64,000 bases of DNA from Blasia pusilla. Its lineage: Eukaryota. This document shows, piece after piece, positions 3,700 through 42,029 of this stretch. The stretch covers positions 35,898,001-35,962,000 of the forward strand of contig CM114271.1 of NCBI GenBank assembly GCA_050084515.1, in the 5' to 3' direction. How positions within the stretch are numbered: position 1 is the stretch's first letter; each line of letters starts with the position of its first letter. The notes beneath the pieces were generated by a model, which saw nothing but the letters and a program-made list of their open reading frames with translations, was not told the DNA's origin and did not search any database. Position numbers and translations under genes: made by a program.

Positions 3700-5990
3700 A
3701 TTAACTGCGTAACATCCATTCTGGATCAACTGATAGTTGATGGGACTAACATCAATGCAAAAGAGAATGTGTTAGATCTAATTCATAGCATGCCTCAAAG
3801 GTATAAAGGCTTTTTTTTATTTCTATTCAGGTTCAGCCCAATTTGACAAATGACAACTCTCATTCCTCAATTTTTGCAAGAGGAAACTTATAAGAAAAAT
3901 ATGGATGGGGATGCTAATTCATCAACAACACTCTCTATTAGGGGGAAGCAAAGATTCAATCAAGGCAGAGGAAACTAGAAGAAGATTTCTATCACATCAA
4001 TGCCCTGTTTCTATTGTAAGCAGTTAGGACACATGTTCAAGAATTGCCCTAAAAGACTGCAGAAACTAGAGTAGAGTAATATTGTTGAATCTAAACTCTA
4101 CACAACAACAATAAGTGCCTAAAATACTCCAAATACAGCTTGGTATGTGGTTAAAGGAGCTACTTAGCATATGGCTCACTACCTCAACACACGTTTCAAG
4201 CCAGAAATGCAGATCAACAATTATTGGTGTACTTGGGAGATGACACATCCCAGCCTATTCAAGGAACATGGTCTGTGTGCATCAAGCTTCTTAATGGAAT
4301 ACAAACTGTTGTCACGGCTGTGCTGTTTGTTTCTAGTCTCAAGAAGAATCTATTTTCAATGGATCACTTTGATCAAACAGAGGACAGGTCATAATCAAGA
4401 ATTGCCGATGCATGTAGTCTGAAATACAAAGTTGGGATAACAAAAGCAGAAAAGTAGATGTAAAATCTGAAGAAGGTACTCTTCTTGGTTACGACAAGCA
4501 AAGATAAGCATACATGTCGCAGAAGAAATTCAACAAGATTATCATTACCTATAGGGATGTAAGATTTCTAGAGGGCAACATGGCTTATGCTTGTCTGTGT
4601 GAAGAGAAGGACAAAGATAACTTTTTTGAGTTCGTGAAGGCTTAGGGAACAAGTTTAGTGGGATCCTTACCAACTCCAACATGGACTACCACTCAAGGAA
4701 TAGATGTAAAATCACCAAGTATGATCATTCCAAGCACTAGTACGAGTGCTAATGTGATTCCAAAATATATCATGCTTATTGATGCTGCACTCGAACAAGT
4801 TCAGATGGAGCCACGGATTGTTTACACAGAGTCCAACAACAGAATTCCAACAGAAGCAAGACTTGGACCAAGAAGACCTGAAAGGGTTTCAAGGCAAGTG
4901 CAGAAATATGATCCTGCACATCAAGAATTGCAGGCAAGGAATGTAAAGAAGGAGAAGTTAACTCGTGTGTTATTGAGTCAATTAGAGAATAATGTCCATA
5001 TTGAAGAACCCAAGACCTATAAAGACCCTCTTTGTGCAACAAGTAGTTCACTGGAGGGATGCAGTGGAGGAAGAGCTTAAATCCATGAAGTTGAATTGTT
5101 AAAACATGGTCATTCACCTCACTCCCACCAAGTAGAAAGGCCTTGGGATGTAAATGGGTTTTCAAAATCAAGTATAAGGCAGATGGGAGCATTGAAAAGT
5201 ACAAGCCAGATTAGGTTCAAAAGCCTATTCATAGATTTATGGTGTGGACTACACCAAGCCATCCTCCCCTATAGTCAACGCAATTTCAATTCGAGCTATG
5301 CTTGCTCTGGAAGCACACTTTGATCTTCAAGCACATTAGATGGATATAAAGACAACATTTCTGAATGGTAAATACTTAAAGAGGAAGATACATGGAGACG
5401 CCTAAGGGGATATCAGATCCTACTTGCCAAGTTCAAGTATGTAGACTTTACAGGTCCATTTGTTGACTGAAATATTTTCCAAGACTGTCATCAAATGATG
5501 GATAGTTTTCAGATCAAAGTAGGATTTTGAAGATCTGATAATGACACAAATGTGTATATTCTGAACAAGCAGGAAACTTTTGCTCAATTGGCGTGATGCA
5601 GAGATGATGCTAGACTCATTAGCAATTGTACACCATTGCTAAATCTATTCAGGACTTGATGAAGAAGGAGTTGAAAATGACAAATCAAGGAGAAATCCTT
5701 CATTTCCTTCAGATGGTAGCAACGGAAGGAAGGATGGATGGATTAGACTATCTCGCATTGAGATAATGTACTTGCATAAGTTAAATGCAAGATAGTCTAA
5801 TCCATCCATCCTTCCTTCTGTTGCTTCCATCTGAAGGAAACGAAGGATTTCTCCTTGATCTGTCATTTTCAACTCCTTCTTCATCAAGTTCCGAACAGAT
5901 TTAGCAATGGTGCACTTGTGCAAATACATTATTTACATAAATAATGTACTTGCAAAAGTTAAGATGTGTGATTACAACATTGCAATTGTA
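3700..5990 (+). mobile_element. Degenerate Ty1/copia LTR retrotransposon internal region (gag zinc knuckle, protease, RT; integrase largely missing)
   Basis: CFYCKQLGHMFKNC at 4006-4047; WYVVKGAT*HM (decayed WxxDSGATxHM) at 4141; EEPKTY; KTWSFTSLPPSRKALGCKWVFKIKYKADGSIEKYK at ~5100-5205; MDIKTTFLNG at ~5340-5369. Confidence 0.9.
5631..5912. repeat. Foldback inverted duplication, 129-bp arms (5631-5759 / 5784-5912) with a 24-nt loop
   Basis: The arms are direct reverse complements with scattered mismatches. The loop sequence recurs at 5941-5962. Confidence 0.95.
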
Positions 5991-6039
5991 GGACTTCCAG
6001 AAATACTTGGTTCCCAATCTCCCATGAAATTTTGAAACT

Positions 6040-6810
6040 CAGCTGATTGTTATGAAGTGATAGAGAAGTCAGCTTGTGGCAGTCGAAGAGTTCTCCCGGA
6101 ATTGGTCCAATAAGGGAGTTATTATTCAGTGCTAATGTCTATAGAGCAGTCAACCTTCTCAATTTGGTGGAAATTTAATCCTTATTTAGGTCCCGTAAGC
6201 TTTTTCTTGAAAAGGTTGAGTCCCTCCAATTTTACAAGCCCTGCAAAAGAAGAAGGCCAAAACTCTCCATCAAACTGATTCTTCGATTCTTTCATAGAAA
6301 TGAGGTCTGACAGATTACCAAATAACTCCAAAATATTCCCATGAAAATCATTCTTGTCTAGAGACAAATCGTGAAGTCGTAAAGATGGAATCCAAAGTGC
6401 CACTCAACTTATTCCTGCGTAGACTAAAAATTTTCAGTTTTTTCAACTTGAAGAGAGACGAAGGAATAGAGCCTTTCAAATCGTTGGCTGAGAAGTCCAC
6501 ATTCTTCAAGTTGCTAGAGTTTCCTATCTGATGAGGGATCGTTCCCACCAAACTTCTCACTCCATACAGATTTAGTAATCGTAGATTTTTGAGCTAATCA
6601 AATGCAACAAGCTACCACAGACAAATGGGAATGAGATTGGAGGTGACAAAGTCCCTTTCCACGCAAGACTACCAAGAATGTTGGGTGTGAGGAGGAGCAG
6701 GATATTAGCCTTAGAGTATTACGAAGCAAATTCCAGGTAGGTTGGGTAGGATGGGGAGAAAGTGAGATCTGTTTGACTTTCAAACAACTGTATCAAAGGC
6801 AATTAGAGAA
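6040..6810 (-). pseudogene. Plant extracellular-type LRR (RLK/RLP ectodomain) pseudogene fragment
   Basis: SLVGTIPHQIGNSSNLKNVDFSANDLKGSIPSSLFKLKKLKIFSLRRNKLSG; LSLDKNDFHGNI; LALNNNSLIGPIPGELFDCHKL. These fit the LxxLxLxxNxLxGxIP consensus and are split across frames. Confidence 0.85.
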
Positions 6811-7512
6811 CCAGAGGGTGCATGTAATACCCGAATTTTTTTTTCATAAGTTTCGTTGTCAATTTCCACAGGCGTGATCACCTCCTCGACATCTCCTAAA
6901 ATTGTATTCAAGTGCTGGATGTACGCCTGCTGATTACATTCCGTTACCATTAGAACGATATCTCCTCACTCTCCTCTCCTACAATTTAGGAGCCTCGATA
7001 TCATCATAACCTCCTTCCCGACCCTTAGAGAAATCTTGGGCTCTGGGTGCAAAACCCAAACCCTAACGGCCACATCATCATGCTACGTAATCCAAATGGG
7101 AGTCATTTCTTTTAACTCTCACTTATTTGAAAACCTTGACTAGATAACAATGACTCAGTGTGCCCTCCATGACTAAACAAATGATTCTATATGAAGCAAA
7201 AGGATTAAAAATGACTCCAAGAGTCATTGTGATGATTTTTGAGTCATGAAAAGCTTTTGAGTCATTAAGTATTGAGTCATAAAATCGGGTATTTCCTTCT
7301 AGTGATACCAAAACCTCCCATACCTTCATCTTCAAGCTAGGAATCATGATGATCTACTCTCTTCCCATCCATAATAATGTTCCATTCTAACTTCACTTAC
7401 CATTAACATCTTGACTTATTAACTCTCAAATCCAAACCCTCTTATAAATAATAATAATGAAGAAAGAGGGAAATTCCAAAATATGGGAATTAGGGAGTCT
7501 ATGGGGGTATCA

Positions 7513-8136
7513 AAATCACATTTTTTATAGAAGATCAATGAGTATCCGCAAGGTACCTTCAAGGAGGTTGGAGGAAAAATGCAAGAGGTCAAGGATAACA
7601 TATTAATGAAAAGTAAGGGTAACTTAAGAGAGCATGTTTCCCCTTGTTTTAGACTTATTTGGAACCATGTTGAGAAACTTATTATTTTAAGCAAGTCCCT
7701 CTTAGGAACATAGTTGAGTTTCCATTTGGAGAATTGATCCTTCATCCCCCTACTATAGGTCAAGAGCCAAGGAGGTAACCTTCAAGCACAAGTCACCAAG
7801 GAGAGAGCTTGGGAAGAGGGAAGGGATATATCCAAGGAGAGAGAGTTTCGGAGCTCATTTTCTCTTTGTTGAATCTTCTTTCTTGAACGAGTAGAGCTAT
7901 AGTCCTCCTTGCCTTATGAGTAACCTAGGCCTCTCACTATGAGAGTGGGTTTGGTTTCATATGAGAGAGACATGGAGTATATGAGAGATTTGATATCACT
8001 TGATTTAATTCGAGATATTTTGGAACATGGTCGTTTTTGTGTGAAGCTGTCATGAGGGAGTATGGTATCTTTTGTTTATGTCTTTGTGTTTGGTAACAAC
8101 AATGTATGTTGTGTAGCAATGTGTTAACACACAACA
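7513..8136 (+). mobile_element. Solo LTR, family A (diverged copy)
   Basis: Aligns by eye to 27631-28269 (GGTCAAGAGCCAAGGAGGT...GGAGAGAGCTTGGGA...CAATGTATGTTGTGTAGC) and ends in CACAACA. Confidence 0.75.
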
Positions 8137-9429
8137 AGGGAAACAAAGACCAAAGTGGATAATAACAAAAGTATATTCTAAAGAGAAAGGGTACAAAATA
8201 ATATTTAGGAATACTTAAATGCATTAAAAAAAAAGTTTAAGGGAACCAAATGGCTTGTTCATACCAAATATTCATCACTCTATTTAACTAGAGTACCACA
8301 CTGATCCCACATTGATCCCATACTACCCCTCTAGGTCCTCCACTCTATCTCCATCATGGTCCATTTGACGAGAAGATAAATAAGCAAAAAAAGGGTGCTC
8401 CTAAGGCTTAAGTTCTTAAAATATACAGCCACAAAAGACGTAAAATTTTCCAAAAGAAGATCCATGTTGTTAAAGATGATCAACAAAGAGGATTCTCGAT
8501 AGGGTAAATTATTTATGGGGCACTCAAAAGAGTTGGGACTTAATAGGTCTTCAAACATTTGAAGGATCCTCCAATCAAAGGATTTAAAAAGAGTAAGGAG
8601 GCTTCTAGACATTTACATGGTCCTAATGAGATATATAAGGTGTCTACCAAAACACTAGGAAGTAGCTTGAGGGTCATCAATCTTTGTGAGGCTATCAATA
8701 TGAAGCAGATCCTAAATAAGAGCCCCATTGGAAATCCTCATAGAGGCGATGTGGCTTGTAATGGGTGTCATGCTCGTACACATCATCATACAATCTACAT
8801 TGTAGCTCATATCAATACAATAAACATTGTGGATGTAGGTAGATCCATGTACATACAAAAATAAACTTATAAATGTATATCAAGATCACAAAAAATGAAG
8901 TAAAAATATCTTACATGGAAAACTCCACACTTGAATCTACATGCATATAGTCATCATTTGGCCCCTCTACTAAGGTTGCTACATCCTATTAGCTTGACAT
9001 AGTCAACCAACATAGGAAGGTAGACGCATGCTAATATGACACTAGCCCTAAATATAAACCCTAAATACCATGCCTAAGCCCGCCCAATGGCTCTACTGTG
9101 CGGGTCTGTTGTGGGCTACGCGCGAGCCAAAAAATGGGTAGATGTGGGCTCAGCTAGCCTGGGTCTATGCAACGGGATTGGATGCGGGCTGTCTGCACCC
9201 GAGCCCACACACACATGCCCCTGAACTTTTTTTGTGTGCAATCTTGTTTGTGTTGAACATGTGTTGCATTTCAACCCATTTTCATCCAAGGTCAAATGAC
9301 TTGACTTACAAATCACCTAAAAATTGCACTCATATAGTAATAGATCCTTCTTGGTAAGCTACCTAATACTCTTGTTGGTCTCTACCAACCACCTCAATAG
9401 TTTATGATGAATGATGATCATGCAAGGAT

Positions 9430-10975
9430 TTCCAAATAAATAGCATACATGTGAAATATATTATGTATGGCCCATATTGTAGCCAAGCACTCTCCCTCAT
9501 AGAAGTTGTACTTCATTTGTGCAATATTTTTCAATCGACTCGCATAAGCCACAAAAAAATCCCTTTGCTCGTTATCCTTTTGAGTGAGCATTGGTACCAG
9601 GCCCAACACACTTCGATCGGAATGTATCTCAAATAGATGACCTATAATAGGTTTCAAAAAAGGATCCACCATAGACACGGGCGATGTGCTCATGATCCTA
9701 CACTCGCCGCATCCAAAAACACTATTGGGTCAATCCATGCACGCACCTGATGTGCACTCTTCACCACCCGTGACCTCGAATCGCCCAAAATCGGTACATT
9801 CTCCAAAATGTAAGGTGGAGAACGAGACTGATGCTCCTGCAAGTTTTGCAAGATCCTCATCATCTCCCTAAAAACCTAGATCGAGTGTCAACTAACCTAC
9901 TACCTTATCTAGCACTCGACTGGCCCTGACACGTCCAACCTACAATGACCAAATCAATGGTCCCTACCTGCTCCAAGTCCTACGCCCCCAGCAACGAAAT
10001 ATCCCTCGATAGGGAACTCTCGTATCCTTGTACAGCCGACCCAGATAACAATTCAGAAAAACGGAGGCATAATTGCGCCATGTGTCATAGTGAAATGGGC
10101 ATTGCAAACTCATCAAGCTCAACATACAAATATTTTTGCACGTGCACTCTTGCTTGCAAAACAACAGCCAATCCACTACTGATTTCCAAATAGATCTAAC
10201 ACCCGAATACCCTCCTCTAGGATGCATGCGCCACACAATCATTGTGGTGTCCAAGGATGTCATAGAAGTACTCTTGGCTACCTCGGGTTCCTCTGACCCA
10301 TCACGCTCTGGTGCAAAGGTCTTACTCCACACCGTCTGCACATGCTCATCGGCCAAGCGTCGAAGCTCCTCACTCAATCAAGCCCCACAACAGCACCTCT
10401 CCTCCACGGAATGATGCGGCTACCATAACACTCCTCTCCCTAGAAGTTTCAGGCGTGGATGTGTCCACTGCATGGACATACCCCTCAATCAAATAACAAG
10501 GCCAAGTGATGGTGTTGGTTAATGTTGCTAATGTCGCTATCTCTCCTAGCCGTCGCTCGATCACTCCACCCGTGAATCGAACGTGTAACAAGCTAAGTCG
10601 CCCATCACCTGACTATCATACTAGTCTGTAGGATGTTGACTCTTCCCAATAATCCAGGTAAAACCCCATTGGGTATAACAGTGCTCTTCAACCAAGACGT
10701 CGTACGACTCGACATGAGTCACTCTTGCCTTGGCTCGCACCATGGACTCATCTAATGGATGTCTCGAGAAAATCCTCACCACAATCTCATGTCAAGTGAT
10801 AAATTGTGTTGTACTTGCTCCATCCAAAGATGTCTGTATCTTGAATGGAAAATGCTCCATATTGGCCCTTGTTAGGCCCAATCCTATAAATGCCACCTTT
10901 CCCAACATCAAGGGTTACGCTCTTGAATCCAACAAGACGCGTTGCGGAAAAAACACTTTACCTCTTGGACTCATT
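9430..10975 (-). mobile_element. Ty3/gypsy polyprotein relic: aspartic protease - linker - C5 DNA methyltransferase - (RT missing) - RNase H
   Basis: Protease FPQRVLLDSRA*PLMLGK (catalytic Asp at 10927-10929) and VTHVESYDVLV..YPMGFYLDYWEE. DNMT at 9663-10220. RNase H IHSDRSVLGL..LTQKD...FVAYASR...YEGECLATIWAI at ~9440-9660. Confidence 0.88.
9663..10220 (-). pseudogene. Retrotransposon-borne C5-cytosine DNA methyltransferase domain (DNMT3-like), degenerate
   Basis: Manual translation gives motif I GIRVLDLFG/ISSGL, motif II YLYVELD, motif III RDI, motif IV IDLVIVGWTCQGQSSA (Cys at 9929-9931), motif V LVDTRSRF, motif VI YILENVP (ENV at 9795-9803) and motif VIII LDAASVGS*AHRPCLWW. Two frameshifts and several stops interrupt it. 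Confidence 0.9.
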
Positions 10976-11329
10976 GAGGTGTTGTGGAGGGCTTATGCAA
11001 GAGTGGAGCGTCCCTCAGATTTTTTGGTGGATTCTATTGTGGATCTACGTCATCGATCACAAGTAGTGAGTTGACCGCCGTTGACTGTGATGAACAAGAT
11101 TGGCATGCCACGGGCAACCTTTCCCATCTTTGTGAGTTTTTCCGCTTCCTATGCATACAAGGAGGCCAGGCTTGGCTTGGTTTGAGATGACCAGGTATAG
11201 CGGTTGGTGGAGCCCAATGCCAATGAGCAACAACGAGCGATAGGATTTCCCACAAGAGTGACGACATCAGTTTCTTAGGAGTTATAGGAGTTTTTTTGCA
11301 TTTAGCATGCAAGATTTGGGTACGCTAAA

Positions 11330-13255
11330 GGAACCTATCGCTCGTTGTGAGTTGTATAGCGATACGCCAATCTTTTGAAGATCCTACAAGTACGGTGATA
11401 TGGAGAGGGCTTTGATTTAGAGTAGGATCCAAGACTTGATTGGAGCAGGACTAGTGGAGATGTTGCATGGAGATTATTTTTCTGCCATTGTTATGCCCGC
11501 CAAGAAGGATGTGCATGGCAACTGGACGGATAGGCGGATACGTGGAGCTTATGGACCTATCAATCGGTAGACAAAGTTTGATAGGTATGCCATGCCCAGC
11601 CCTGAGGAGATCTTTGATGTTATTGGGCATGCAAAGGTCTTCAATTTGTTAGATCTTCAAGCCGTATACCATCTACTGCCTATCAGATTGGAGGATAGGC
11701 AGAAGACAATATTTTGGGGTATCGATCCTCACGGGAAGGATTCCCTGCACCAATGGCGTTTCTTACCATTTGGGTTAAAGAACGCTCTGGCTGAGTTTCA
11801 GAGGATCGTGGATAGGATCTTGGCAGATCTAGATTTTTCTACGCGTTATATTGATGACATCTTAGTCTTTAGCGCCATGATTGAGGAGTATGAGCGACAT
11901 CTAGAGGAGGTGTTTTGATGATTGCAGTTATATGGGCTAAAGCTACGTCCACGCAAGTGCAAGTTCTTCTACGACCGGATTAAGTACTTGAGTCATACGA
12001 TATATCCACATGGCCTTGGTGTGCAACAAATAAAGATAGAGGCTATTTCACACATTCCACGCCCTACAGATGTGAGTCGAGTTCGTGCATTCATAGGATT
12101 GGTGAACTTCTATCGACAAAATGACAAGGGTTTTAGTTAGATTGCAAAGCCGCTAACCTTGCTGACCAAGATGGATCACAAGTGGCACTCAAGGGATGAG
12201 CGCAAGAGCTCAAGGACAAGTTGATGTCCGCGCCCATATTGAGGAGACAGATCAAGGGGCTTCCTTTCTAGTTGCATACAAATTGGAGCATGTTGGGGCT
12301 TGGAGTTGTGCTCACCCAACATGACGATGAGGGTAGAGAGTTTGTGGTGGCTTACGCTAGTTGCTTGAACAACGTTGTAGAGACAAAGTATAGCTTGTAT
12401 GAGGGTGAGTGTTTGGTTGCAATTTGGGTTGTTGCGCATTTCAGGTATTACTTATTCGGCAACCACTTTACCATCATTACTGATCATCAACCATTTAAGT
12501 GGTTGATGGAGTTCGACAAGCTTACAAGGAAGCTTGCAAGGTGGGCTGTATTGTTGCAAGAGTATGATTTCCAGGTGGTACATAGACCTAAGATGCTCAA
12601 CCAGGATGCAAATGGTTTGAGTCATAATGTACCCATGCTCGAGTCAACGAGATGTGACTTGAGCTCAGTGGCATAGAGAGAGTGATGAGGAATTAGTGCC
12701 AAGATGGCATGCGTGAGCCTATTAGGCTTGTTGGCTATGGAGAGCCAGAGTGTTGAGACTTCGATGGTGAGGTCTGAAGGAGAGTCTGGAATACCTACAT
12801 CTAGAGGCCGGTGAGGAGGCAAAAGATGACCAAGATATTCACGAGGATGGAGTAGTCTTAGAGTACCTATGTACTGGCAGCGTTGCGAGCACAATGGGTC
12901 CTAGAGAGCAGGATTGGATCCTACAGCAAGCCAAACGGTTTCGGAGGGAGTGGACATATGTGTTGTGAGTTTGGCAAGATAGTAGAGTACATGTAGTGCC
13001 TCATCCTTCATATAGAGCACGTTTGGTTTAGGCATGCCCATGAGGATTTTGGTCATTTTGGAGTGAAGTGGACGTACAACTTGCTCCAGATACAATATTG
13101 ATGGCGAGGCATGCAGACTGGTGTTCAATAGTTTGTTACCAGGTGCATGGTTTGTGATCGGGTCCGAGCATCGTTCAATGCTCTGACTCCACAGCCTTCC
13201 AATCGTGGGTTTAGGTTATAGATGGAGTTTGGATTTTGCACGCCCTTTACCTTAG
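11330..13255 (+). mobile_element. Ty3/gypsy pol relic (RT, RNase H, integrase N-terminus)
   Basis: LDL..YH.LPI..ED..KT.FWG; FLPFGLKNA; YIDDILVFS; RNase H VVAYAS...YEGECL...TDHQP; integrase zinc finger HEDFGHFG...CMVC; WSLDFA. Confidence 0.95.
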
Positions 13256-13599
13256 ATTGATCCTTTTTTTCAACCCTTTCAATCTTTGATCTTGTATGTT
13301 TTTTATGTTCAAGGGTAATTGGAAATATTAGTCTTTGTTTATTTGGGGGGGAGGAATTTCTATTTGGGACACTGAATACCCTTATTTTTTCGACTTATTC
13401 CCCTACTCCACAATTGGGAAGGACCATAACCACTTAATAAGTGGATAAACATCCTCACTCTGATAGATTTGGATTGGTGATCCTTCCATTTGGCCATAGA
13501 TGCTCTCCGATTTGATGCATTTTGTAGCATCGTTCCCTCTTGAGTCATGGGAGTAGTCAAGGTCTCATCTTGAAAATATCATGGATATATTTGAGACAC

Positions 13600-14240
13600 G
13601 TTTTCCTTGCTCGAGGTTAGTCCATAAGACATTCTATTCAAAATGACCTACGCCATGCTCTATTACTTCCCCCAACTAGGATTGCACTGGTCTCTATATA
13701 AGGACAAGCTCTCTTGGTATTTAATGCTTCTCCTACCCAATTGGTATATTGGCTTTACTCATATTGGGAAAGCCGGACATAGGGAGGTTTTGGCATAACT
13801 CAAGAAATTTAGAGGAAGTTACTAGAAGTCTCCTTAGAGCAACTTTGTGGCTTGCATTAAAGGCAACTCTTCAATTGATTTTCCATTAGGCTATCTTGTA
13901 GGAAACATTGTAGGACATTGGGACTTTCTTGCAAATACTCATGAGTGGCCTATGCTCTTTGTCCTTTAGTTATCACACCCCCAAAAATTGATACTATCCA
14001 TGCCCCTAGGAGCCTACATCCTTGCCCAATGGTTGACATTCCAACTTTCATGCATGACTTCCATCTTGACATGGATCCGTGTCTCTATGCACAGGCACTT
14101 GGACCTTTGCCATTGGCTTGTGGAGGTTTGCCAAATATGGTGTAAGAAAATCAATGGGATTTCTAATTTTCCAAAAGATCCTACTAGCGGCTTCTCCAAA
14201 TTGCTATTGTTTAATTGCCTCTCACCTAGGTCAAGGGATA
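13600..14240 (+). mobile_element. Older fragment of the CRE-like non-LTR family seen at 38-42 kb
   Basis: WYIGFTHIGKAGHREVLA*LKKFRG and GGLPNMV...KDPTSGFSKL match WFLRYTRGGKAGHREVVA*LRRFRG and GLSGIMY...EDSASSFSEL of the 38-42 kb element. Confidence 0.7.
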
Positions 14241-14399
14241 ATTCTAGTAGTAGAATCCAAAGTTTTCAGGTCGGGGCGAGTCTAGTCAAAAAATTTGAAT
14301 TGATGTTACACATCAATTCAAATTTTTTCTTGCCGAAACATAAAGATAGATGTGTTATATTATATAGTAGAGAAGTAACAGATTGGGACGCCATGGCCC

Positions 14400-16060
14400 A
14401 ATTTTGTTCGAAGAAAACTGACCCGGCCCGAAACGCAGTCCCGTCGGTCGAAGAGCGTGTTCGCCGGGTAATCTGGACCAGTTTAGGAATAGCATCGTAC
14501 AGAAATGGATTGTCCGATATCAGCGCACTCCGGAGTGTCGGTTGTAGAGTCGACTTTTGGGCGTGGCGAAGACTATGCGACCTTAAAGTATGAAGGAAAG
14601 GAAGGCACTGACCACAGTTTGAAGAGTCTCACCCACTAGTGAGTCGCGCCCCGTTGGTTAGCGTGCCAATGGTTGTATTCCCACTAGGAAACTGAAAAGA
14701 AAAAAATGAAAATAGACTATGAGGGTTGATTGGTTGAAGGAAAGGAACTAATTCATTCATATGAGGACGGGACTTCGACCAGAAACCGTTCACACGAACC
14801 AATCGAACGAAGGAGAACACAAAGTAAATTGATGGAAGCTCGGACCCATATCATTCACACGGTAGGAAAAGTGTTAATCTCAAAAATCGACGGTGTACAC
14901 TGGATAGTTTTCCCGACCGAGGGAAACGAACGAAAAGTCCGTTCGGAGAAGTGTGCTCTGCCAACAATATTGTTCCAGCAGTTGATCACGCTGTGGGTCC
15001 CGAAATGTTTGATTCGGCTATTTTTCCAGTCCATCCACTGGTCCGTCTCCACATCATGTACATGAATAAATAAAAGAGTTAGATTTTGTCACTTGCGACG
15101 ATAGATCTCTAGAGATTCATGTCTTGCCGATCCCGTTCTGTCATGAATCTCTAGCACATTGTGTGGGGCCTCTAACTCGAGTGTGCTCGTGATCAGGTTC
15201 GAATAGGACGAATGAGTGGAATTGTGTGTGTAGGGTAGAAAAAGAACGCAATACAACGAAACTCAGAAATGGACGCAACGCTTCAAGTAGCTTCCAGCGC
15301 ATCACAACTGAGGTGTGCTGGGTGTAGGCCTTGAGTGTGGTGATCGAGCTTGTGACCCAAATCTTCCATGGATTTTCAAACCTATTGCATGTTACAGTTG
15401 GCGCAGTTGATCACTCGCGGTCTGGAGGTTGGATTTGCCTGAAAAGGAACAGGCAAGTGAATCAGCCACTGGCATGGACAGAGATGGCGACGGGCCGGTG
15501 TGCTCGAGGCGACGGAAGAATCGGCAGGTGATGCGAGAGCGAGCCAGGGTAAGATGAGAAAGCAATGTCAGATAGGAGCTTGGACACAGTTGCAATGCGC
15601 TGCGAGCTTTTGTCGAATTCGAACGTGGGAGATCCTGGCCATGAGAGCGGAATTGAAGAAGCAGTGCCTTCAGTTTTTCGTAAGAAAACACCGCTGGCAA
15701 TGTATGGTGCTGTTAGTTTGGATTTCGTTCTGGAATTCCCGGAGCCCGAGATAGCATACAAGCCCAAACCCAGCAGATCATCATCAGCGCTGTCTCCAAC
15801 GATTGTGCCTGTACCCCGACCTGACCTCGAGGGGAATAGGGAACATTGCGAACTGGAGGGAAGAGTGGAGAAGAATCCATGGAAACGTGGCGTTGAAAAA
15901 TGTGGATGAAGCGGCGGGCATTCGGATTGTATGCCAAACCGTTGCTGGTCAGAAAAGGTGATCTGTAGGCGGTGTGCATTGGCTACACCACTCGCGGTAA
16001 CTGCGAAATCGTCCTCTGCAGTTGCTTGGCCGACGAAGGAGGTTGCAATGGTCGATCAAG
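14400..16060 (-). pseudogene. Highly degenerate intronless F-box/kelch-like (beta-propeller) gene relic
   Basis: Collinear weak motifs: ISQLPRVV*../PTDHLF*PATVWHTIR...SSTFF (F-box), VAISVHASG, IWVTSSIT, NLI...LEIHDRT, HDVETDQW, SIFEIN. Many stops. Confidence 0.5.
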
Positions 16061-20340: not shown

Positions 20341-22109
20341 GCACGGTGGACGGGTTTCCTGATTGTAATTCACTTTGCCACATTAATTTGGAAGAGCCTC
20401 TACATACAAGTACGGTTTTAGTTCCCTTTCACGGAGTTTATCCACCTGAACTTCATGAAGGATCTCTCTTCTCTTGCATGTGTGAATAGAGGGATGACAT
20501 GAAGCTAGGGTGAAAAAAATGAACGGAAATCTAATGTCTCCACCCCCTTCATTCATTGATTATAATTAATTCTTGTGTTACCATGTGTCACCACCAAGAA
20601 AGTTCCCATAGGACAGATGTTGATAGGAGGAAGAGGAATTCTAACCCCATCCTCTGTCAATAGTATAGATTTTCTTCCCCTCTCAAAGTAGTCCGACGTG
20701 GGACACTCTAGCATTTGGTGAGCATTTCTCTATGGATACACCCATAGTGGATTGTCTTAAAGGTGATCGTTGAGATTGCTTTCAATTCAATGTCTTGTGA
20801 GTTACTTCAGCGAGGATGTTGGAGGTCCCATGTCACATATTAGGCGCCCGACAAGTAGAGTTTTACCGTGTCATGGTGTAAAGAGTCATAGGGTTGTTTG
20901 GGCAAAACTTTGTCCGAGGTGGTCTAATGAGGTTGGCTACATTTTCATTGCGTCGAGATCATTATTTGTCACAAACCCTCTCTTTTGCAATTTTGCATGG
21001 ATTACCATTTTGACTATTTTTGGGGGAAGAGCTATTATGGCTCTTCCTAAAGATCTAAAAGATGGGGAGATGGCTTTCAATTTCCAATTTTCTTATGTTG
21101 AGCCTATGAAGCATTCATCCTTTTAGGGTTTTGTAGGAGTTTGAAGGTTAAAGTCCACATTCCCTCATGGTAGAAGATGGATGTGTCTTCATGACTATGT
21201 GTAGATTTGAGAATGGACTTTTCCATGTGAGCCATTTTTACTTTGATTTTACTTGGCAAAGATAGATAGAGATAACCATTGCGTGCAAGTGGAGAAATCG
21301 AGTTGCCTCGTTGGAGATCCCCTTGGAAGCATGTTGATAGGATTTTGAGGTTTTTTTTTTTCCATTCCAAAGGCCATGTGCGGAATAGTGGCAGCAACAA
21401 TATCATAGAAAAAAAATAGTATTGCATAGAAAGACATGGACGACACAAGGCATATCGACATGCAAAGTTTCTGAGGTGCGGTAGGCACCATCGAGTTACA
21501 TGATTTCATGCAATGGAAGACCTCTCTCTAGTTATCCAGCAAGATAATATCTAGTGATACCATGGCACGCCCTATATCGGGTCTAGCATGCATCTCCGCC
21601 ATCCTAGCAACCACAACCTGCCATGACTCTTAGGTGGATGACCTGAGCAAACTCTCCAAGGGTAGGTCCGCCACCTCCTCTGCAATCACCTCTGATTGTG
21701 ACGCATGAACACCAACTCCACGCTCACATAGTGTAGTGGCCAACTAGAAAACCTCGGCGGGCGTACCTCCCAACATCGTAACATCCGAAGCAGAAAACAA
21801 TGGGATGTGGTACATAGCAATGGCCGCCCCCAACAACATACTCAACACAGGCTCGACCTGAGCACCTACAATAGGAGTCTTTGCGTTTGCTTCTCCCATG
21901 GCCCTCCATGCCTACACTCCCTCATCAAGACCCATCGATGGGGTCCTCATCGCCGCGGACAAAGTAGAAGACTGAGGAATCTCGGTCTATTTCTTGGCCT
22001 TGCCTCTCTGCAAATCCAACTCTGTAGCTACTCCACGTATAACAACATTGGCTCCCTCCATCTGTGCAGCCCTGCACATCCAACCAGATCCTCCATGTCT
22101 CTAGCTGCT

Positions 22110-31214: not shown

Positions 31215-34200
31215 TCAAGACATTACAATACCTTTCTTACCTCTTGTGTTGGCTGCTATAGCCTTCTCTGAAGCAGCCGCCATTGCCTGGTCCAGGGCTA
31301 TTGCAGTCTCCTGGGCATCTGCTCCTTCTGCAACTCCGACAGTATCAATTTCAATGCATCCTTTCTCGCCTTCCAAATTGTACAACCCTGGAGGCCGTGA
31401 CCTGGTCACATGCGCATGGGCCTCCGCTCTGGCATCAGAACCTCTCTCACCAGATGATATTGTGGCAATATACTCCTTCTCCATGTCCATGACATAATCC
31501 TCACTATCATCTATATCTGAACTAATATGCTCGCCCAGCCCTTCTTCAGTATTCATCATAATACGCTGTCTCTTGTGTTCCTCAAACTCAGCCTTTGTGG
31601 GAAGTATCACGTAATCATAAAGAGGATCATAGAAGGGATCCGGTTCCCCAGCTCCTAGCCAATGTTTCATAATCCGGAAAAATCGCTCATCATTCAATAT
31701 TCCACGATGATCGCCTGGAATTCCCACTCTTGAAAGAGCATCGAGTTCATCTCCCTGCCACAAGAAATAACCAGAGTCTCATGTCCAGTTTCCCTCAGAT
31801 ACAAGACAGCAATGTTGCAGTAAGCACCCCACCCTTGCCAGAGTCTACAATCTTGTTCCATAGATAGCCTCAAACACATTTCATATTTTGCTATGCTCCA
31901 GGCCTCAGGTAACAAGAAACAAGTTTCATGTCTGAATTAGCTAAAAAAGCCTTAGGCAGTGGACCATTCTGTCAACAATAATGAAAATCATTGATAAAAG
32001 AAACCCACCATTGCTGATTCCGCTGGCACTGTCCCATCACCATTTATGAAGTCAAAGTCCGCCTATGAAAACAGTATCCATAGACTCAGTTAGTGATCTG
32101 AGACTCTGAATAGCCCTTTTCATTGGAGACAAGTGGCATCTTCGCCAAAAATGCTACATCTTCCTTCCAATGAAAATTCTATGTTGGCAAACTGTTGAAA
32201 TTTGTTAATATCTAGTTTAGTCATGCTCTAAAAATAGTTAGTCAAATACTAACTTAGTTGGATACTAATTTAGTTAGCTAGAGATAACTTAGTGTTCCTC
32301 TATCTTTTAGGGTAACCTTGAATTAGGGCAATTCTCGAGTTAGGGTTAGCCACCGTCTGTTATTTAGGGTATGGATCTGTTCAAGAAGATCTAAGGGCCA
32401 GAAGTGCTCACCCTGATGTATATAATGTCTCTGTTTAGAGAGCAGAAGCCAATTCTACAGCATGCACAGTTTTGGTGAGGACTCCTGAGGCTCTTGGTCC
32501 TGCTGCAGAGTGATCAGAGAGTAGGAAGAGGAGATTGAGACTAATTGCTGTGCTTGCTAGAGCCTCACTGGAAGGCAGGTTGTTTTGTCTAGTATGCTGA
32601 TGGAGATTGTTTGTGCTCAATGGTGAGCCATGTCTGATCTCTGAGCTGGTGACATGTGAGGACCTGTAGTGTGAGTGCAAGGTGTGGCTTTGTAGAATCC
32701 TTCTTAGTATCTCTTAGATAGTAAGAAGAGTCACATCATGGTAGGGCTCTGATTTGGCAATAGAGATAGGAACTGATTTGCTGATTGTGTACAAGCTGAA
32801 ATCATGGATGGTCTAGCTGATGCTAGCTCTGACTTTGTACAAGGAGATACTTCTGCTGGTCAATCATATTCTCACAAACTATATTCACATACTATCTCAA
32901 CTGTCTTTGAATCTTTATCCCCTAAATTAAGAAGACAAGAACAGAGAGATATGGAGTCCCTCATGTGAGGAATTCAAGATCTCAAAATCAAAACTGCACC
33001 TCTGTCCTTAAAATGTCCTGTAAAATGTGGATTGGAGAGTCTTCACTTCCATAACTGCAGAGAAGGTAGCACAATATCAGGTATAGAGATAGCTTAGTTC
33101 ATCCCCGGCCTGGTGAGGAGTGTGATTCACATACATGGTGTGCAAGCCAATATGCTATAGCCTAACAAAGCCCATGAGCAGGGTGGTACAAGGCAAACAG
33201 CAGGATCTTGATATCAACAGCAACCTCACTAGAGATATGAACAGTTCTACTGTATATTATTCGTTAAATCTGACAGATGCTCCCAAACAACCAACCACGG
33301 CATACAATTTGCCCCCTTCCACAAGCATACACAAGATTGGTTGTAATTATCTTCTGTTCCGACTAAACCATTAAAATTTCAAAGAATCTGCACCTTTGAA
33401 ACCTTCTGGCAAAACAGAACTACAGTATCCTTACGTTGAAAGAAGTAGATAATTTGGCAAGAAACAAGTGCTTTATCAATCATATTGGACATTTTCATGA
33501 GACATCAATTCTCAGTATAATGCCAAAAACCTCAGACATCATTCCTCATGCATCAAGTTGTAGACCTTGAAAGGAAAGTCACCGACATGAGGTAATGAAT
33601 GAAAGAATAGACAGGACATACCAAGTATGCATTGGTGTCTCGAGATCAGTGCCAAACACATTATAGAAGTTTATTCCCTTAGGAAGCTTGGCGGTTTTCA
33701 AGAGCCTTTGAGTTTCCATGGCCCAAGCCAATATATCTCGATTCAAGGGAACTGATACTTGTTCCCCATTGTAGTCCAGCTGTACCAGCAGGGAAACAGG
33801 AACATATGGATTAGCATCTAGAAGGGACACCAGTTGCTCCACCTGACTTATAATGCAGACTAAATGTCAGGGAGTCTACTGAGAACAGACGAGGCTTGAG
33901 AATCAAAACTCAATAAACTTGTATTTTCTATCTCAGTAAAAGCCTGGGATAGGAAAACCAGGAAACAAAAACTTACAACATTATCCTGCAGAGCTGCCAT
34001 CATTACACCAATACAATCTTTAGGACCAAAGGCTTCCATTTCAGTTTCACTTTCCCCATTGGAACCAAGCCGCTGATGCCAAAGCCTCAACTCAGGAGCT
34101 TCAGACCACGCAAAGTTTGGGGAGGCCATGAGCTCATACACAGATGGACATTCAATCAGCTGCAAAAAGGAAGCACGCCCATATAAGAACAAAAATGCTA

Positions 34201-36971: not shown

Positions 36972-38137
36972 GGTTCCAGACGAATTATCTAAAAAATGCC
37001 AACACGAGCCCTTCTAGCCACACGGCTACCCGAAAATCTGCGCAGGAGCGAGTCTATTCCTCTCCCTTTAGACGGAATGATTCCGCCTCCTTGAATTGAA
37101 GACCAGGGTCCAGTAAACTCGACTTGTCTCCTGTACTTAGCAAGCAGGGGCTCAAATAGCAATCCCCATCACAAGGACCAAATAACATCAATACTCCTCC
37201 ATACTCTGCAAAACCAACCACACCTTCCTGTTTCCAAAACCCACCCAACCCCACGCCCACCTTCTTCCCTACCCCACTGTGCGAACCAAATTCACGCCTC
37301 AAGAAGCGCCAATTGAAACGCACGACACTCCAATTCCGCCAGCGTCCCTGCACTCCTTCCTTTACCCCACACTCCTACTGCTCCTGAATTAGGGTTTTCT
37401 GCAGCAATTCGTAGTGCTGTCCGAACCGGTGCCCACATCCAACTCCGTCACAAGACAAGTATAAAAAAGAACAGCGGAACTTTTTCATGGTACAGAAGCT
37501 TCGATCATTTTTTATTACACCCTTTCGACGATTCCTTCTTCGATTTCATTCTATATATCGCTTCTCTGCTAAACGCTGGCAGACCCAGACGACGAGGATA
37601 CAGTGGCCCAGAACAGTCTTCCGTTGCGGCGCAATTTCTTCCCAGCATGAGTCGACTGCAGCCCACGAGTACCAGAGGATGAGCGGGAGCAAAACGCCTC
37701 ACGACTAGCGCCTCGACCTCACACTTCGACTTCCCATGCTCCAAGCGCGGCAGGTGCGAACACTGTTTTGGGTTTATTCCTTTTCATACGTCATCACCCG
37801 TCGTCGTCAAGTCGCCCCGTGTTAACGATATCCCATTCCGTCTAGACTCTAGAGTCTACACCCTTCACTGCACTTCACCCATTCGCAGTAAATAACTACT
37901 ATACTCCGGCCCCGGCCCCGGGCCCCGACGGTGCAACCTCGTGAGAAGGCAAAGATACCTCCACGTGTCATGCCTGTCCCATCTTCCCATGGCTCATTTA
38001 CAGCCCGCATTCACGGTACGCCTGTCGAACAAACGAGCCGCCAAGTGCTTACACGGCTTCTACCTCGCAACCCACAAGCTATGAGACCTACAAAATTGTT
38101 AGGCGTGACGGCTCTTCGTGGAAGACAAGAGAAAGTG

Positions 38138-41100: not shown

Positions 41101-42014
41101 AAGAAACCTGTGGTGTTGCCAAGGTAGGATCTCAACCACTCCCATGCCTTAGGAGGGGGCGATGATGCATGTAGCACCTATGAGCATACATGATCGACTG
41201 GAGGAACCACCCATCCAAATCTATCAAAGTCAGGATGTTTAGCCGCTAAGTGGTTCCGAATTCCTAAACGAGTGAAGAATTTTGGACAACAAGGGCATTT
41301 CGTATCCCGAATAGACGACCCACGGACCCCTATGCGAGGGGCCGATGCGGGTCAAGGCATGGACACCGCACACCAAGAAGAGAACATGACCCCCTCCATC
41401 AAACTCGAGAAACGATCCCCACCAGAATCCGTCCAACAACCCCCATTCGAACTAGCACTAATGGTAATCGACTCTCTTCCTGTCCACAAAAATGCTCTCC
41501 CTAGTATGAACTCTCATGTACCATCTTCACCTAGGACTTATGACCCAACCCCTTCCCAAAATAACGTAGAGGTAGTATGGAGGTCCGGATGATATGGAAA
41601 GAGAATAGACGGGAAAGAATATATGGGAATAGAGTGGGATAAGGGAGAAAAACATGGATCAAACGTGAGCGAGAAACATGAGTGGCTACAGGATAAGGAC
41701 ATAGAGAAAAAGGGATGGTGTGGAAGAACAACATGAGTTGTCTTGGAAATATTCATGACATGACAACGAAACGAGACAACAAAGAGGACCCTAATACCTA
41801 CATGAGAAACCCTAAAAAATCAAGAATCTAAGAAACAAAATAAAATGAACAATACTTCACTATAAGATTGATGTTGCGGATCAAAACATAGAGGAGACCG
41901 ATATCTCCGTCCGGTATAACACACGACCCTCTTCCATCCTCCATCACTCCATCAAAATCCGTTCCCGCCTCTTCACCATCCTCCGCGACCTCTGTGGGAG
42001 GTAGGGTTGATCGA
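38138..42014 (-). mobile_element. CRE-like non-LTR retrotransposon (RT plus C-terminal CCHC/restriction-like endonuclease), TSD-bounded, degenerate
   Basis: RT motifs GIRSIAIGEVLLRL, QVDVENAFNS, GDPLGGALF, SLANDTHIVG, GLRILGVPLG. RLE region CKCG..LD..G.YL..C..GGER..THD, RVDL...ADVIVTDP, KK..Y, FIPLAIEMHG. TSD core TCGTGGAAGACAAG at 38116-38129 and 42015-42028; short AT-rich 3' tail. Confidence 0.88.
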
Positions 42015-42029
42015 TCGTGGAAGACAAGT

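What the first reader, a model, noticed from the sequence alone, without database searches (positions are those of the whole stretch)
9430..10975. Ty3/gypsy retrotransposon carrying its own C5 DNA methyltransferase, in a land plant
Seen: reading the - strand through stops and frameshifts gives one collinear polyprotein. It runs from a retropepsin (VLLDSRA*PLML, YDVLV, GFYLDYW) through a linker into a cytosine MTase with motifs in canonical order (VLDLFG/ISSG, YLYVELD, DI, GWTCQG, D.RS.F, ENVP, DAA.VGS.AHRP.LWW). It then jumps abruptly into gypsy RNase H. No introns are evident. Known: FxGxG, PCQ, ENV and RxR define C5-MTases; the DAxxxSxAxRxRxxW form resembles DNMT3; DNMT-bearing retrotransposons have been described in dinoflagellates and charophyte algae but are not a standard feature of embryophyte LTR elements. 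Inference: the ancestral element was gag-PR-DNMT-RT-RH-INT and could methylate its own cDNA or new insertions. This copy is dead (motif IV Pro to Thr, stops, motifs IX-X and RT missing). The ORF track misses it entirely.
Basis: partly seen in the sequence, partly recalled or inferred. Interest (0 to 1): 0.93.

Follow-up and report, generated by a model that had tools for sequence, protein, structure and literature searches.

The report
Gypsy retrotransposon with own DNA methyltransferase
A broken, partly flipped copy of a jumping gene in a liverwort genome that carries its own DNA-methylating enzyme, a kind of element so far described in print only for algae.

Summary
The minus strand of 9666-10974 reads, through stops and two frameshifts, as retropepsin, then linker, then a DNMT3-type C5 cytosine methyltransferase (motifs I to VIII).

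Motifs IX-X and the RT are not missing. They lie next door on the plus strand: methyltransferase C-terminal half at 10976-11275, RT 11268-12212, RNase H 12203-12655, integrase zinc finger about 13027-13254. Segment 9666-10975 is inverted relative to the rest of a single PR-DNMT-RT-RH-INT element. The minus-strand RNase H at 9248-9654 is a separate, more diverged fragment.

The same collinear order occurs in two annotated Marchantia polymorpha proteins (PF00145 + RVT_1 + RNase H). A Calypogeia fissa protein holds the same linker and methyltransferase start, and Closterium proteins show gag-PR-DNMT-RT. A host gene in the window is closest to Marchantia and Riccia, so the organism is a liverwort. 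Contigs from four sequencing runs of the same coded organism pile up by the thousand on the whole stretch, methyltransferase included, so this is a repeat family and not a one-off capture.

A model of an intact relative matches DNMT3A/B/C best among solved structures. This copy is dead. It extends the published Klebsormidium "Gypsy-DNMT3" kind to land plants; my searches found no paper saying so. Enzyme activity and its role are inferred only.

The parts
10690..10974 (-). Retropepsin, N-terminal part with the catalytic DS(G->R) site; 2 in-frame stops
   Evidence: Marchantia P0161 residues 136-231, 52% identity; P0019 residues 1014-1108
10213..10681 (-). End of the retropepsin (LYPMGFYLDYWEE) and the PR-to-methyltransferase linker; several stops and frame changes
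   Evidence: P0161 residues 235 onward; linker also matched by P0002, P0003, P0006 and P0087; alignment
9872..10217 (-). Methyltransferase motifs I to V: VLDLFG, frameshift, ISSG..., YLYVELDE, GWTCQG (Pro->Thr), DTRSRF; 3 in-frame stops
9666..9875 (-). Methyltransferase motifs VI to VIII (ENVP; DAASVGS*AHRPCLWW), reached by a second frameshift; 1 in-frame stop inside 9666-9875 (a second stop in the aligned stretch lies just past the breakpoint); ends at the inversion breakpoint
   Evidence: P0161 residues 494-567, 62% identity; ORF 9690-9875
10976..11275 (+). Methyltransferase C-terminal half: target-recognition region and motifs IX-X (...LVEPNANEQQRAIGFPT); 3 in-frame stops
   Evidence: P0161 residues 570-672, 45% identity, E 6e-18; P0019 residues 1479-1575; alignment
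11268..12212 (+). Reverse transcriptase
   Evidence: Pfam RVT_1 E 2.2e-20 on the window frame; P0161 residues 714-975 at 57% identity; P0150 at 62% identity
12203..12655 (+). RNase H
   Evidence: Pfam RT_RNaseH E 1.1e-29; P0161 residues 979-1119 at 70% identity
12825..13254 (+). Start of the integrase with its H2C2 zinc finger; the integrase core was not detected after 13254
   Evidence: Pfam Integrase_H2C2 E 3.4e-10; P0150 residues 586-664
13428..14071 (+). 3' stretch shared with the second gypsy copy in the window (41255-40610); nature not settled (possibly the 3' end or an LTR)
   Evidence: self-blastn, 65.6% identity over 660 bases
9248..9654 (-). Separate, more diverged RNase H fragment that abuts the inverted segment; not the continuation of the methyltransferase
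   Evidence: P0161 residues 992-1124 at 48% and 38% identity, against 70% for the plus-strand RNase H; Pfam

Best explanation
The window holds one dead, 5'-truncated and rearranged copy (about 9666-13254, perhaps to 14071) of a liverwort Ty3/gypsy retrotransposon family. Its Pol polyprotein carries a DNMT3-type C5 cytosine methyltransferase between the protease and the reverse transcriptase (PR-DNMT-RT-RH-INT).

In this copy the first 1.3 kb (PR plus methyltransferase motifs I-VIII, 9666-10975) is inverted relative to the rest (methyltransferase motifs IX-X, RT, RH, INT on the plus strand from 10976). That is why it looked like a methyltransferase that breaks off.

Shown: the anatomy, the family kinship, the DNMT3-type fold of intact relatives, and the many copies in the same organism.

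Inferred, following de Mendoza et al. 2018 on algal elements: in intact copies the methyltransferase is made as part of Pol and methylates the element's newly made cDNA or its new insertion, de novo. This would let the copy pass as host-like DNA or set its own chromatin state. I put that particular mechanism at about one in three.
For: - Collinear match to Marchantia P0161. Residues 136-567 lie on the minus strand (10974 down to 9645). Residues 570-1189 lie on the plus strand (10976 up to 12965). The break falls exactly at 567/570.
- P0019, P0020, P0021, P0039 and P0127 show the same split.
- Pfam on the window's own plus frames finds RVT_1, RT_RNaseH and Integrase_H2C2.
- Of 16 long representatives scanned, 10 have PF00145 at E<=1e-3, 9 of them at or above the 22-bit cut-off. 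It is combined with aspartyl protease, RVT_1, RNase H or integrase.
- Of 5 further proteins, 4 have PF00145, among them both Marchantia proteins and Closterium P0194.
- The RT ORF's nearest named relatives are Calypogeia fissa (71%) and Marchantia (64%). Of the 29 hits, 2 list PF00145, and both are Marchantia.
- In the quick tree the window piece groups with the two Marchantia proteins (SH-aLRT 97), then with P0001 (99). The Closterium proteins form their own clade (100).
- DNMT3 type: phmmer of P0161 against solved structures gives 27 methyltransferase hits, all DNMT3A/B/C, best E 2.3e-6. The model of relative P0039 has pLDDT 91.5. All its Foldseek rows shown are DNMT3A/B/C (E down to 3.6e-20, TM by target up to 0.81).
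- Many copies: 7544, 1595, 1799 and 1774 contigs from four runs lie on 9300-11600 at >=90% likeness. Summed depths over the methyltransferase bins are mostly in the hundreds to thousands, against 0-8 at 9300-9453.
- Six contigs of run X1 carry, just before 10975, letters that read W-T-N-L-V-P-H in frame with the plus-strand EVLWRAY. That is the uninterrupted methyltransferase seen in Marchantia (LWWTNLLPRE).
- One contig each in X2 and X3 joins 9665/9666 to 10976/10975 on opposite strands, as a non-inverted copy would.
Against: - PF00145 does not score on any single frame of the window.
- A search with the 61-residue ENVP ORF found nothing.
- This copy has no gag, no detected integrase core and no flanking direct repeats that could be LTRs.
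- There is no second methyltransferase in the 64 kb. The related gypsy copy at 40610-50768 shows no PR or methyltransferase.
- Depths are sums over short contigs at >=90% likeness. They are not copy numbers. One methyltransferase bin (10070-10146) has almost no cover.
- The two joints rest on one short contig each (sides of 34 and 42 letters, min_likeness 90).
- The Marchantia proteins are gene models and could join exons.
- No host DNMT3, DRM, MET1 or CMT sequence and no Klebsormidium sequence was in the tree, so 'DNMT3' rests on solved animal structures only.
- No activity, expression or methylation data were seen.
Confidence: 0.88

Rival explanations
1. One-off capture: a processed pseudogene of a host DNMT3 landed by chance inside an old gypsy fragment. 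There would then be no methyltransferase-bearing family.
For: There is only one methyltransferase copy in the window. The second related gypsy copy lacks it.
Against: The same PR-linker-DNMT-RT order, with a conserved linker, occurs in two Marchantia proteins. A Calypogeia protein holds the same linker and methyltransferase start, and Closterium proteins show gag-PR-DNMT-RT. Thousands of contigs of the same organism cover the methyltransferase part. No reader domain precedes the methyltransferase; the protease does.
Confidence: 0.03
2. Two independent truncated copies lie head to head. One is a minus-strand deletion derivative (PR, methyltransferase N-half, RNase H). The other is a plus-strand copy truncated at the methyltransferase C-half. 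No inversion would be involved.
For: The minus strand does run from the methyltransferase into an RNase H (9654-9248), as a deletion derivative would. TE-rich regions hold many nested fragments.
Against: The minus piece stops at P0161 residue 567 and the plus piece starts at residue 570. That coincidence is unlikely for independent truncations. The minus RNase H is far more diverged (48% and 38% to P0161) than the PR, the methyltransferase and the plus RNase H (52-70%). Contigs in two runs join 9665/9666 to 10975/10976 on opposite strands.
Confidence: 0.07
3. The inversion is not biological. It is an assembly error or a polymorphism of the sequenced individual, and the real locus is a plain collinear PR-DNMT-RT copy. 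This changes only the rearrangement, not what the element is.
For: One contig each in X2 and X3, from two studies, shows a junction expected for the non-inverted order with no letters between. None of the rows shown bridges 9666 or 10975 in the window's own arrangement.
Against: 12695 laid pieces were not shown, so lack of visible support is no evidence. The joints rest on single short contigs at min_likeness 90 in a repeat family.
Confidence: 0.35
4. The methyltransferase-like domain of the family is a pseudo-enzyme or serves RNA or structure, not DNA methylation.
For: Motif IV is not uniform in the family (P-C in some members, E-C in Closterium and in P0020). PF00145 covers only part of the domain in most members. 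De Mendoza et al. 2018 found that one retrotransposon methyltransferase (SymbioLINE) was inactive on DNA in yeast (Discussion).
Against: Cys and Gln of motif IV, Glu of ENV and Gly of motif I are invariant or nearly so in 28 aligned members. The model of a relative is a complete, confident DNMT3-type fold. The published DIRS-Dnmt3 methylates CG de novo (abstract and Discussion).
Confidence: 0.15

Closest known systems
KnitGypsy-Dnmt3 of the charophyte Klebsormidium nitens (de Mendoza et al. 2018, PMC5890265; section 9 and Discussion read)
   Same: An intronless DNMT3-type domain without domain rearrangement sits inside the Pol ORF of a gypsy-type LTR element. It has several copies per genome and a streptophyte host.
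   Different: The host here is an embryophyte (a liverwort). I had no K. nitens sequence, so kinship and the position of the domain in Pol were not compared. Activity and selection, measured there, were not measured here.
Marchantia polymorpha annotated proteins Mp_2g26090 (P0153) and MARPO_0091s0058 (P0161), and Calypogeia fissa CAM6086222.1 (P0003)
   Same: The two Marchantia proteins share the same PR-linker-DNMT-RT-RH order. Identity to the window is 52-70% per domain, with 58% over 101 columns of the methyltransferase. They group with the window piece in the quick tree. The Calypogeia protein holds the same linker and methyltransferase start.
   Different: They are intact or nearly intact reading frames, whereas the window copy is broken and inverted. 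They are named only 'hypothetical' or 'unnamed'. A search for their locus names found no paper.
Closterium (Zygnematophyceae) retroelement proteins, for example P0194 (zinc knuckle-PR-DNMT-RT), P0068 and P0066
   Same: A DNMT domain of the same protein family sits between PR and RT of a gypsy Pol.
   Different: They form a separate clade in the quick methyltransferase tree. Motif IV is E-C and the linker is shorter. One member (P0066) is copia-like, with rve and RVT_2 before the methyltransferase.
Animal DNMT3A/3B/3C catalytic domains (solved structures)
   Same: They are the best and only methyltransferase matches by sequence and by fold. The DAA..GS.AHR.R..W form of motif VIII is shared.
   Different: Identity is about 23%. 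There is no PWWP or ADD domain. Motif IV is GWPCQG rather than the animal form (the animal form is recalled, not from a call).
SymbioDIRS-Dnmt3 and SymbioLINE-Dnmt of dinoflagellates, and the EpiLTRs of Cymbomonas and Euglena (bioRxiv 10.64898/2026.05.21.726589, passages read)
   Same: These are retrotransposons that took up a C5 methyltransferase.
   Different: They belong to other element classes or other methyltransferase clades (DNMT4-like in EpiLTRs) and have other hosts.

Membership tests
C5 cytosine DNA methyltransferase (Pfam PF00145) | Match to the PF00145 profile at or above its gathering score | tested here: inconclusive
   No match on any single frame of 9001-11100, where the domain is cut by 2 frameshifts, stops and the inversion. 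The closest intact relatives do match: P0161 35.1 bits, P0153 29.0, P0001 38.6, P0019 45.5, against a cut-off of 22.
C5 cytosine DNA methyltransferase (Pfam PF00145) | Conserved motifs I, IV, VI, VIII, then the target-recognition region and IX-X, in canonical order | tested here: met
   All are present and in order once both strands are read: the minus strand 10217 down to 9666, then the plus strand 10976 up to 11275.
C5 cytosine DNA methyltransferase (Pfam PF00145) | Catalytic Pro-Cys in motif IV and an open reading frame | tested here: not met
   This copy has Thr-Cys, 7 in-frame stops in the domain and 2 frameshifts. Relatives have P-C or E-C. The copy is a dead member.
DNMT3 subfamily | Closest solved sequences and folds are DNMT3 | tested here: met
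   All 27 methyltransferase hits are DNMT3A/B/C. All Foldseek rows shown for the model of relative P0039 are DNMT3A/B/C. The test was made on relatives, not on the broken window copy.
DNMT3 subfamily | Placement inside the DNMT3 clade in a tree with DNMT1/MET1, CMT, DRM and DNMT5 | not tested
   No host methyltransferase sequences were in hand. The tree holds family members only and has no outgroup.
DNMT3 subfamily | N-terminal reader domains of host DNMT3 (PWWP/ADD, or the plant domain of unknown function) | tested here: not met
   The protease and a family-specific linker precede the domain. This fits a transposon-borne domain and not a host gene.
Ty3/gypsy LTR retrotransposon | Pol order PR-RT-RH-INT with a Ty3-like RT | tested here: met
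   The plus frames give RVT_1, then RT_RNaseH, then Integrase_H2C2. PR comes before them once the inversion is undone. Ty3 RT is the best solved match of P0161 (E 4e-48).
Ty3/gypsy LTR retrotransposon | Flanking long terminal repeats; gag | tested here: not met
   No direct repeats flank 9.2-14.1 kb. There is no gag on either side. The copy is truncated. Gag with a zinc knuckle is present in relatives P0019 and P0194.
Gypsy-DNMT3 of streptophytes (de Mendoza 2018) | DNMT3-type domain inside the Pol ORF of a gypsy element, in several copies per genome | tested here: met
   The copy count is indirect (contig pile-up).
Gypsy-DNMT3 of streptophytes (de Mendoza 2018) | Sequence kinship to the Klebsormidium elements; de novo CG methylation activity | not tested
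   None of the 30 representatives looked up carries a Klebsormidium name. Activity cannot be tested with these tools.

The most novel reading that the evidence does not exclude
Gypsy elements with their own DNMT3-type methyltransferase are a living lineage of land plants. They are present across liverworts, including the model Marchantia polymorpha, and are recently amplified in this species. Their enzyme is active and adds de novo methylation, to their own cDNA or more widely. A paper on Marchantia lists only MET, CMT and DRM methyltransferases (Schmid et al. 2018, passages read), so a DNMT3-type activity in these plants could be transposon-borne.
Probability: 0.3. Interest if true: 0.8.

Novelty: new member of a known kind. 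Interest (0 to 1): 0.58.

Why it matters
Retrotransposons that carry a cytosine methyltransferase turn the usual picture around, since methylation is the host's weapon against them. In print they are known from dinoflagellates and the alga Klebsormidium.

Here the same kind of element is present, and apparently abundant, in liverworts, including a laboratory model plant. That makes its role testable with existing genetics, methylomes and transformation. It also bears on whether the lineage came onto land with the first plants, because relatives occur in Closterium, a member of the algal group closest to land plants (that placement is recalled, not from a call).

There is a practical lesson too. 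The domain is invisible to ORF- and Pfam-based annotation in decayed copies, and an inversion can hide half of it.

Tried and rejected
- Whole-genome search was not possible because no genome is held for this window. A census of copies could therefore not be made.
- A search with the 61-residue ENVP ORF in 'longer' mode gave 8 candidates, none significant.
- Pfam found nothing on the minus strand upstream (11001-16000). Downstream (5001-9500) it gave only a weak LRR hit. It found nothing on 49400-53500 minus or on the 21486-21842 fragment.
- Earlier notes of this scan: none for this genome. A word search gave one diatom note, which I did not use as evidence.
- Sequencing runs: no RNA holder is listed, so nothing can be said about expression. 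The shares of words held were small (0.13 or less).
- The protein atlas gave scores of 0.86 only, which are leads and not evidence.
- The careful tree did not finish in 300 s, so only the quick tree is reported.
- Literature: six searches plus passages of nine papers turned up no report of a methyltransferase-bearing retrotransposon in a land plant. Subscription papers such as the Marchantia genome paper are not in the library. Supplements are closed, including the methyltransferase trees of PMC12344493, and they could well show the Marchantia sequences.
- I first read the plus-strand KNTLPLGLI (10949-10975) as part of the methyltransferase. I dropped this because the read joints and the Marchantia alignment put the breakpoint at 10975/10976.
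- I considered that the pre-protease fragment at 21.5-21.8 kb is the missing head of this copy. I dropped that too: it is only 33% identical, and no single inversion makes it collinear.
Full report
WHAT IS THERE

A retropepsin is followed by a linker of about 130 residues. It has VLLDSRA*PLML at 10938-10903, later YDVLV, and LYPMGFYLDYWEE after a frame change.

Then comes a C5 cytosine methyltransferase in three pieces:
- VLDLFG, starting at 10202.
- After a frameshift, ISSG...YLYVELDE...DLVIVGWTCQG...DTRSRF (10183-9872).
- After a second frameshift, VFREMMRIL...YILENVP...LDAASVGS*AHRPCLWW (9875-9666).

An RNase H follows directly on the same strand (Pfam RT_RNaseH, E 1.9e-08). PF00145 does not score on any single frame. 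That is expected for a domain cut into pieces of about 100 and 70 residues with stops.

IS IT MORE THAN CHANCE

Yes.
- The 104-residue middle piece, with stops read as X, found 137 proteins at E<=1e-3 and 18 at E<=1e-10 among 1.84 billion representatives. The best had E 2.8e-23 and 53% identity.
- The best hits cover the linker as well as the methyltransferase.
- Of 16 long hits scanned with Pfam, 10 have PF00145 at E<=1e-3, and 9 of these reach the 22-bit cut-off. In them PF00145 is combined with retroelement domains.

Three architectures appear:
- PR-DNMT (P0017, P0019, P0021, P0059) and DNMT-RT (P0068).
- RT-RH-DNMT-INT (P0110, with P0075 as DNMT-INT-PHD).
- One copia-like rve-RVT_2-DNMT (P0066).

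THE HALF THAT WAS THOUGHT MISSING

tblastn of the family proteins against the whole window shows that the methyltransferase does not end at 9666. For P0019 (gag-PR-DNMT, 1775 residues):

| P0019 residues | Window position | Strand |
|---|---|---|
| 1014-1190 | 10968-10445 | minus |
| 1298-1470 | 10183-9666 | minus |
| 1479-1575 | 10982-11263 | plus |

The RT follows at once on the plus strand (P0068 residues 436-738 at 11265-12194).

A search with the window's RT ORF brought in two Marchantia polymorpha proteins: Mp_2g26090 (P0153) and MARPO_0091s0058 (P0161). Both carry PF00145 together with RVT_1 and RNase H, which I confirmed.

P0161 maps collinearly:

| P0161 residues | Window position | Strand | Identity |
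|---|---|---|---|
| 136-231 | 10974-10690 | minus | 52% |
| 235-495 | 10681-9869 | minus | 39% |
| 494-567 | 9875-9645 | minus | 62% |
| 570-672 | 10976-11275 | plus | 45% |
| 714-975 | 11268-12170 | plus | 57% |
| 979-1119 | 12206-12628 | plus | 70% |
| 1143-1189 | 12825-12965 | plus | 47% |

The break between strands falls between residues 567 and 570. A plain inversion of 9666-10975 therefore restores one PR-DNMT-RT-RH-INT element on the plus strand.

Pfam on the window's own plus frames finds RVT_1 (E 2.2e-20), RT_RNaseH (1.1e-29) and Integrase_H2C2 (3.4e-10). The plus-strand piece 10976-11275 holds the target-recognition region and motifs IX-X, ending ...LVEPNANEQQRAIGFPT. It aligns to every intact relative.

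The minus-strand RNase H at 9654-9248 is a different fragment. It is 48% and 38% identical to P0161, against 70% for the plus-strand RNase H. It simply abuts the inverted segment.

STATE OF THIS COPY

It is dead.
- Within the methyltransferase I count 7 in-frame stops: three in 10183-9872, one in 9875-9666 and three in 10976-11275.
- There are two frameshifts.
- Motif IV reads Thr-Cys instead of Pro-Cys.
- About 40 residues of the Marchantia sequence (673-713) have no counterpart.
- The protease active site reads DSR instead of DSG.
- There is no gag on the minus strand upstream and no integrase core after 13254.
- No direct repeats that could be LTRs flank the copy.

A FAMILY, NOT A ONE-OFF

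No whole genome is held, so I laid public runs instead. Four runs of one coded organism hold parts of the stretch.

Laid on 9300-11600 at >=90% likeness, 7544, 1595, 1799 and 1774 contigs fit. In X1, 851 of them are >=99% alike. Summed depths over the methyltransferase bins are mostly in the hundreds to thousands, against 0-8 over 9300-9453. These sums are not copy numbers, and one bin (10070-10146) is nearly empty. Still, the stretch, methyltransferase included, is plainly repeated in that organism.

Two details matter.
- Six X1 contigs carry 21 letters before 10975 that read W-T-N-L-V-P-H in frame with the plus-strand EVLWRAY. This is the uninterrupted junction seen in Marchantia (LWWTNLLPREILRHAY). 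In other copies the two halves of the methyltransferase are therefore contiguous.
- One contig each in X2 and X3, from two studies, joins 9665/9666 to 10976/10975 on opposite strands with no letters between. A non-inverted version of this locus would give exactly that.

I cannot tell from this whether the inversion is real, polymorphic or an assembly error. The visible rows neither bridge nor contradict the window's own junctions, and 12695 pieces were not shown.

WHICH ORGANISM

A host exon at 31215-31778 (minus strand, LCAT/PLA1-like, PF02450 in its relatives) gives these identities:

| Relative | Identity |
|---|---|
| Marchantia polymorpha phospholipase A1 | 72% |
| Riccia fluitans | 71% |
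| Riccia sorocarpa | 70% |
| Calypogeia fissa | 61% |
| Conifer, moss and lycophyte proteins | below 50% |

The window is from a liverwort. By these identities it is closer to the Marchantia/Riccia group, but it is none of the named species.

WHAT KIND OF METHYLTRANSFERASE

phmmer of P0161 against all solved structures gives 45 distinct sequences at E<=0.01. Eighteen are reverse transcriptases, with Ty3 best at E 4e-48. Twenty-seven are methyltransferases, all DNMT3A, 3B or 3C, with the best at 2.3e-6.

An AlphaFold model of P0039 is confident: mean pLDDT 91.5 and pTM 0.90. P0039 is an unnamed 325-residue relative that spans the whole domain. It is 43% identical to P0161, and the model used a 28-sequence alignment. 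Its best Foldseek matches in the PDB are all DNMT3A/B/C catalytic domains in the rows shown, with E down to 3.6e-20 and TM by target 0.74-0.81 for the catalytic-domain chains.

In the 28-sequence alignment these residues are invariant or nearly so:
- A-G-W-x-C-Q of motif IV
- Glu of ENV
- Gly of motif I
- Asp of motif VIII

Pro of motif IV is not. Closterium proteins and P0020 have E-C.

No reader domain precedes the methyltransferase; the protease does. A tree with host DNMT3, DRM, MET1 and CMT was not made, for lack of those sequences.

PLACE IN THE FAMILY

For the quick maximum-likelihood tree, 130 of 140 proteins had a blastp match to P0039. I kept the 43 that cover at least 170 of its residues, dropped 87, and added the 104-residue window piece.

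In this tree the window piece groups with the two Marchantia proteins (SH-aLRT 97) and then with unnamed P0001 (99). Nine Closterium proteins with three unnamed ones form a separate clade (100). The RT-RH-DNMT-INT proteins form another (99). The careful search did not finish. The tree has no outgroup and is rooted at the midpoint for drawing only.

HOW IT MOST LIKELY WORKS

Shown: intact relatives encode the methyltransferase in frame within Pol, between PR and RT, as a complete DNMT3-type fold with the catalytic residues.

Inferred: the domain is made with Pol, either released by the protease or kept on the RT. It would then act in the particle or at integration on the new double-stranded cDNA.

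De Mendoza et al. 2018 (Discussion read) showed de novo CG methylation by a DIRS-borne Dnmt3. They proposed several roles:
- cDNA methylation to avoid being seen as foreign;
- protection from deamination;
- setting the chromatin of the insertion;
- damping transposition.

For the charophyte gypsy element they reported purifying selection (Ka/Ks < 0.2, section 9). I favour self-methylation of new cDNA or insertions (about one in three). None of these roles is tested here.

COMPARISON WITH WHAT IS KNOWN, AND NOVELTY

The kind is known. KnitGypsy-Dnmt3 of Klebsormidium is cited later as 'streptophytes (Gypsy-DNMT3)' (bioRxiv 2026, passages). It is also cited as DNMT3 members 'embedded within retrotransposon structures' (PMC12344493, passages).

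I found no paper that reports such elements in a land plant. This rests on six searches and passages of further papers. A search for the Marchantia locus names gave nothing. Schmid et al. 2018 list five Marchantia DNA methyltransferases (MET, two CMT, two DRM) and no DNMT3-type enzyme (passages).

The library lacks subscription journals, and supplements are closed. The authors of the 2025 survey may well have these sequences in a supplementary tree.

The sequences themselves are already public as unnamed gene models. I therefore file this as a new member of a known kind, with a new host range (embryophytes). It is of moderate to good interest, mostly because Marchantia makes it testable.

Noticed in passing
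window 21486-21842 (-): This fragment resembles the region just upstream of the protease in the Marchantia and Calypogeia methyltransferase-gypsy proteins (P0161 residues 41-142, 33% identity, E 2e-7; also P0153 and P0003). It is probably a remnant of another copy of the family. Pfam finds nothing in it.
   Followed up: partly
window 40610-50768 (-): A second gypsy copy (RT-RH-INT) is 71.6% identical in DNA to 11404-13256. It carries extra DNA between 49559 and 50607. No protease or methyltransferase was detected upstream of it.
   Followed up: partly
relatives P0110, P0105, P0106, P0137, P0075, P0066: The same methyltransferase family sits at other places in other retroelements. In unnamed metagenome proteins it lies between RNase H and integrase, some with PHD or G-patch domains. 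In Closterium it also follows a copia-type rve-RVT_2. This points to domain shuffling among elements.
   Followed up: partly
window 31215-37013 (-): Host LCAT/phospholipase A1-like gene. Its last large exon is 72% identical to Marchantia, which places the window in liverworts.
   Followed up: yes
window 5959-6593 (-): Leucine-rich-repeat exons of a receptor-like gene lie just downstream of the element. Only a weak Pfam LRR_8 hit was found, below the cut-off.
   Followed up: no
window 56826-58478 (-): Two adjoining long ORFs of 249 and 300 residues. The first has a zf-C17orf113 zinc finger (E 2.8e-10). They may be transposase-derived.
   Followed up: no
window 9848 and 11263 (table 5c): Contigs in X2 and X3 join 11263 to 9848 with the same 30 other letters between. 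This is unexplained. It may reflect a variant copy of the family.
   Followed up: no
literature (PMC5784723): A Marchantia methylome paper lists five DNA methyltransferases and no DNMT3-type enzyme. The transposon-borne DNMT3-like gene models are not mentioned.
   Followed up: partly
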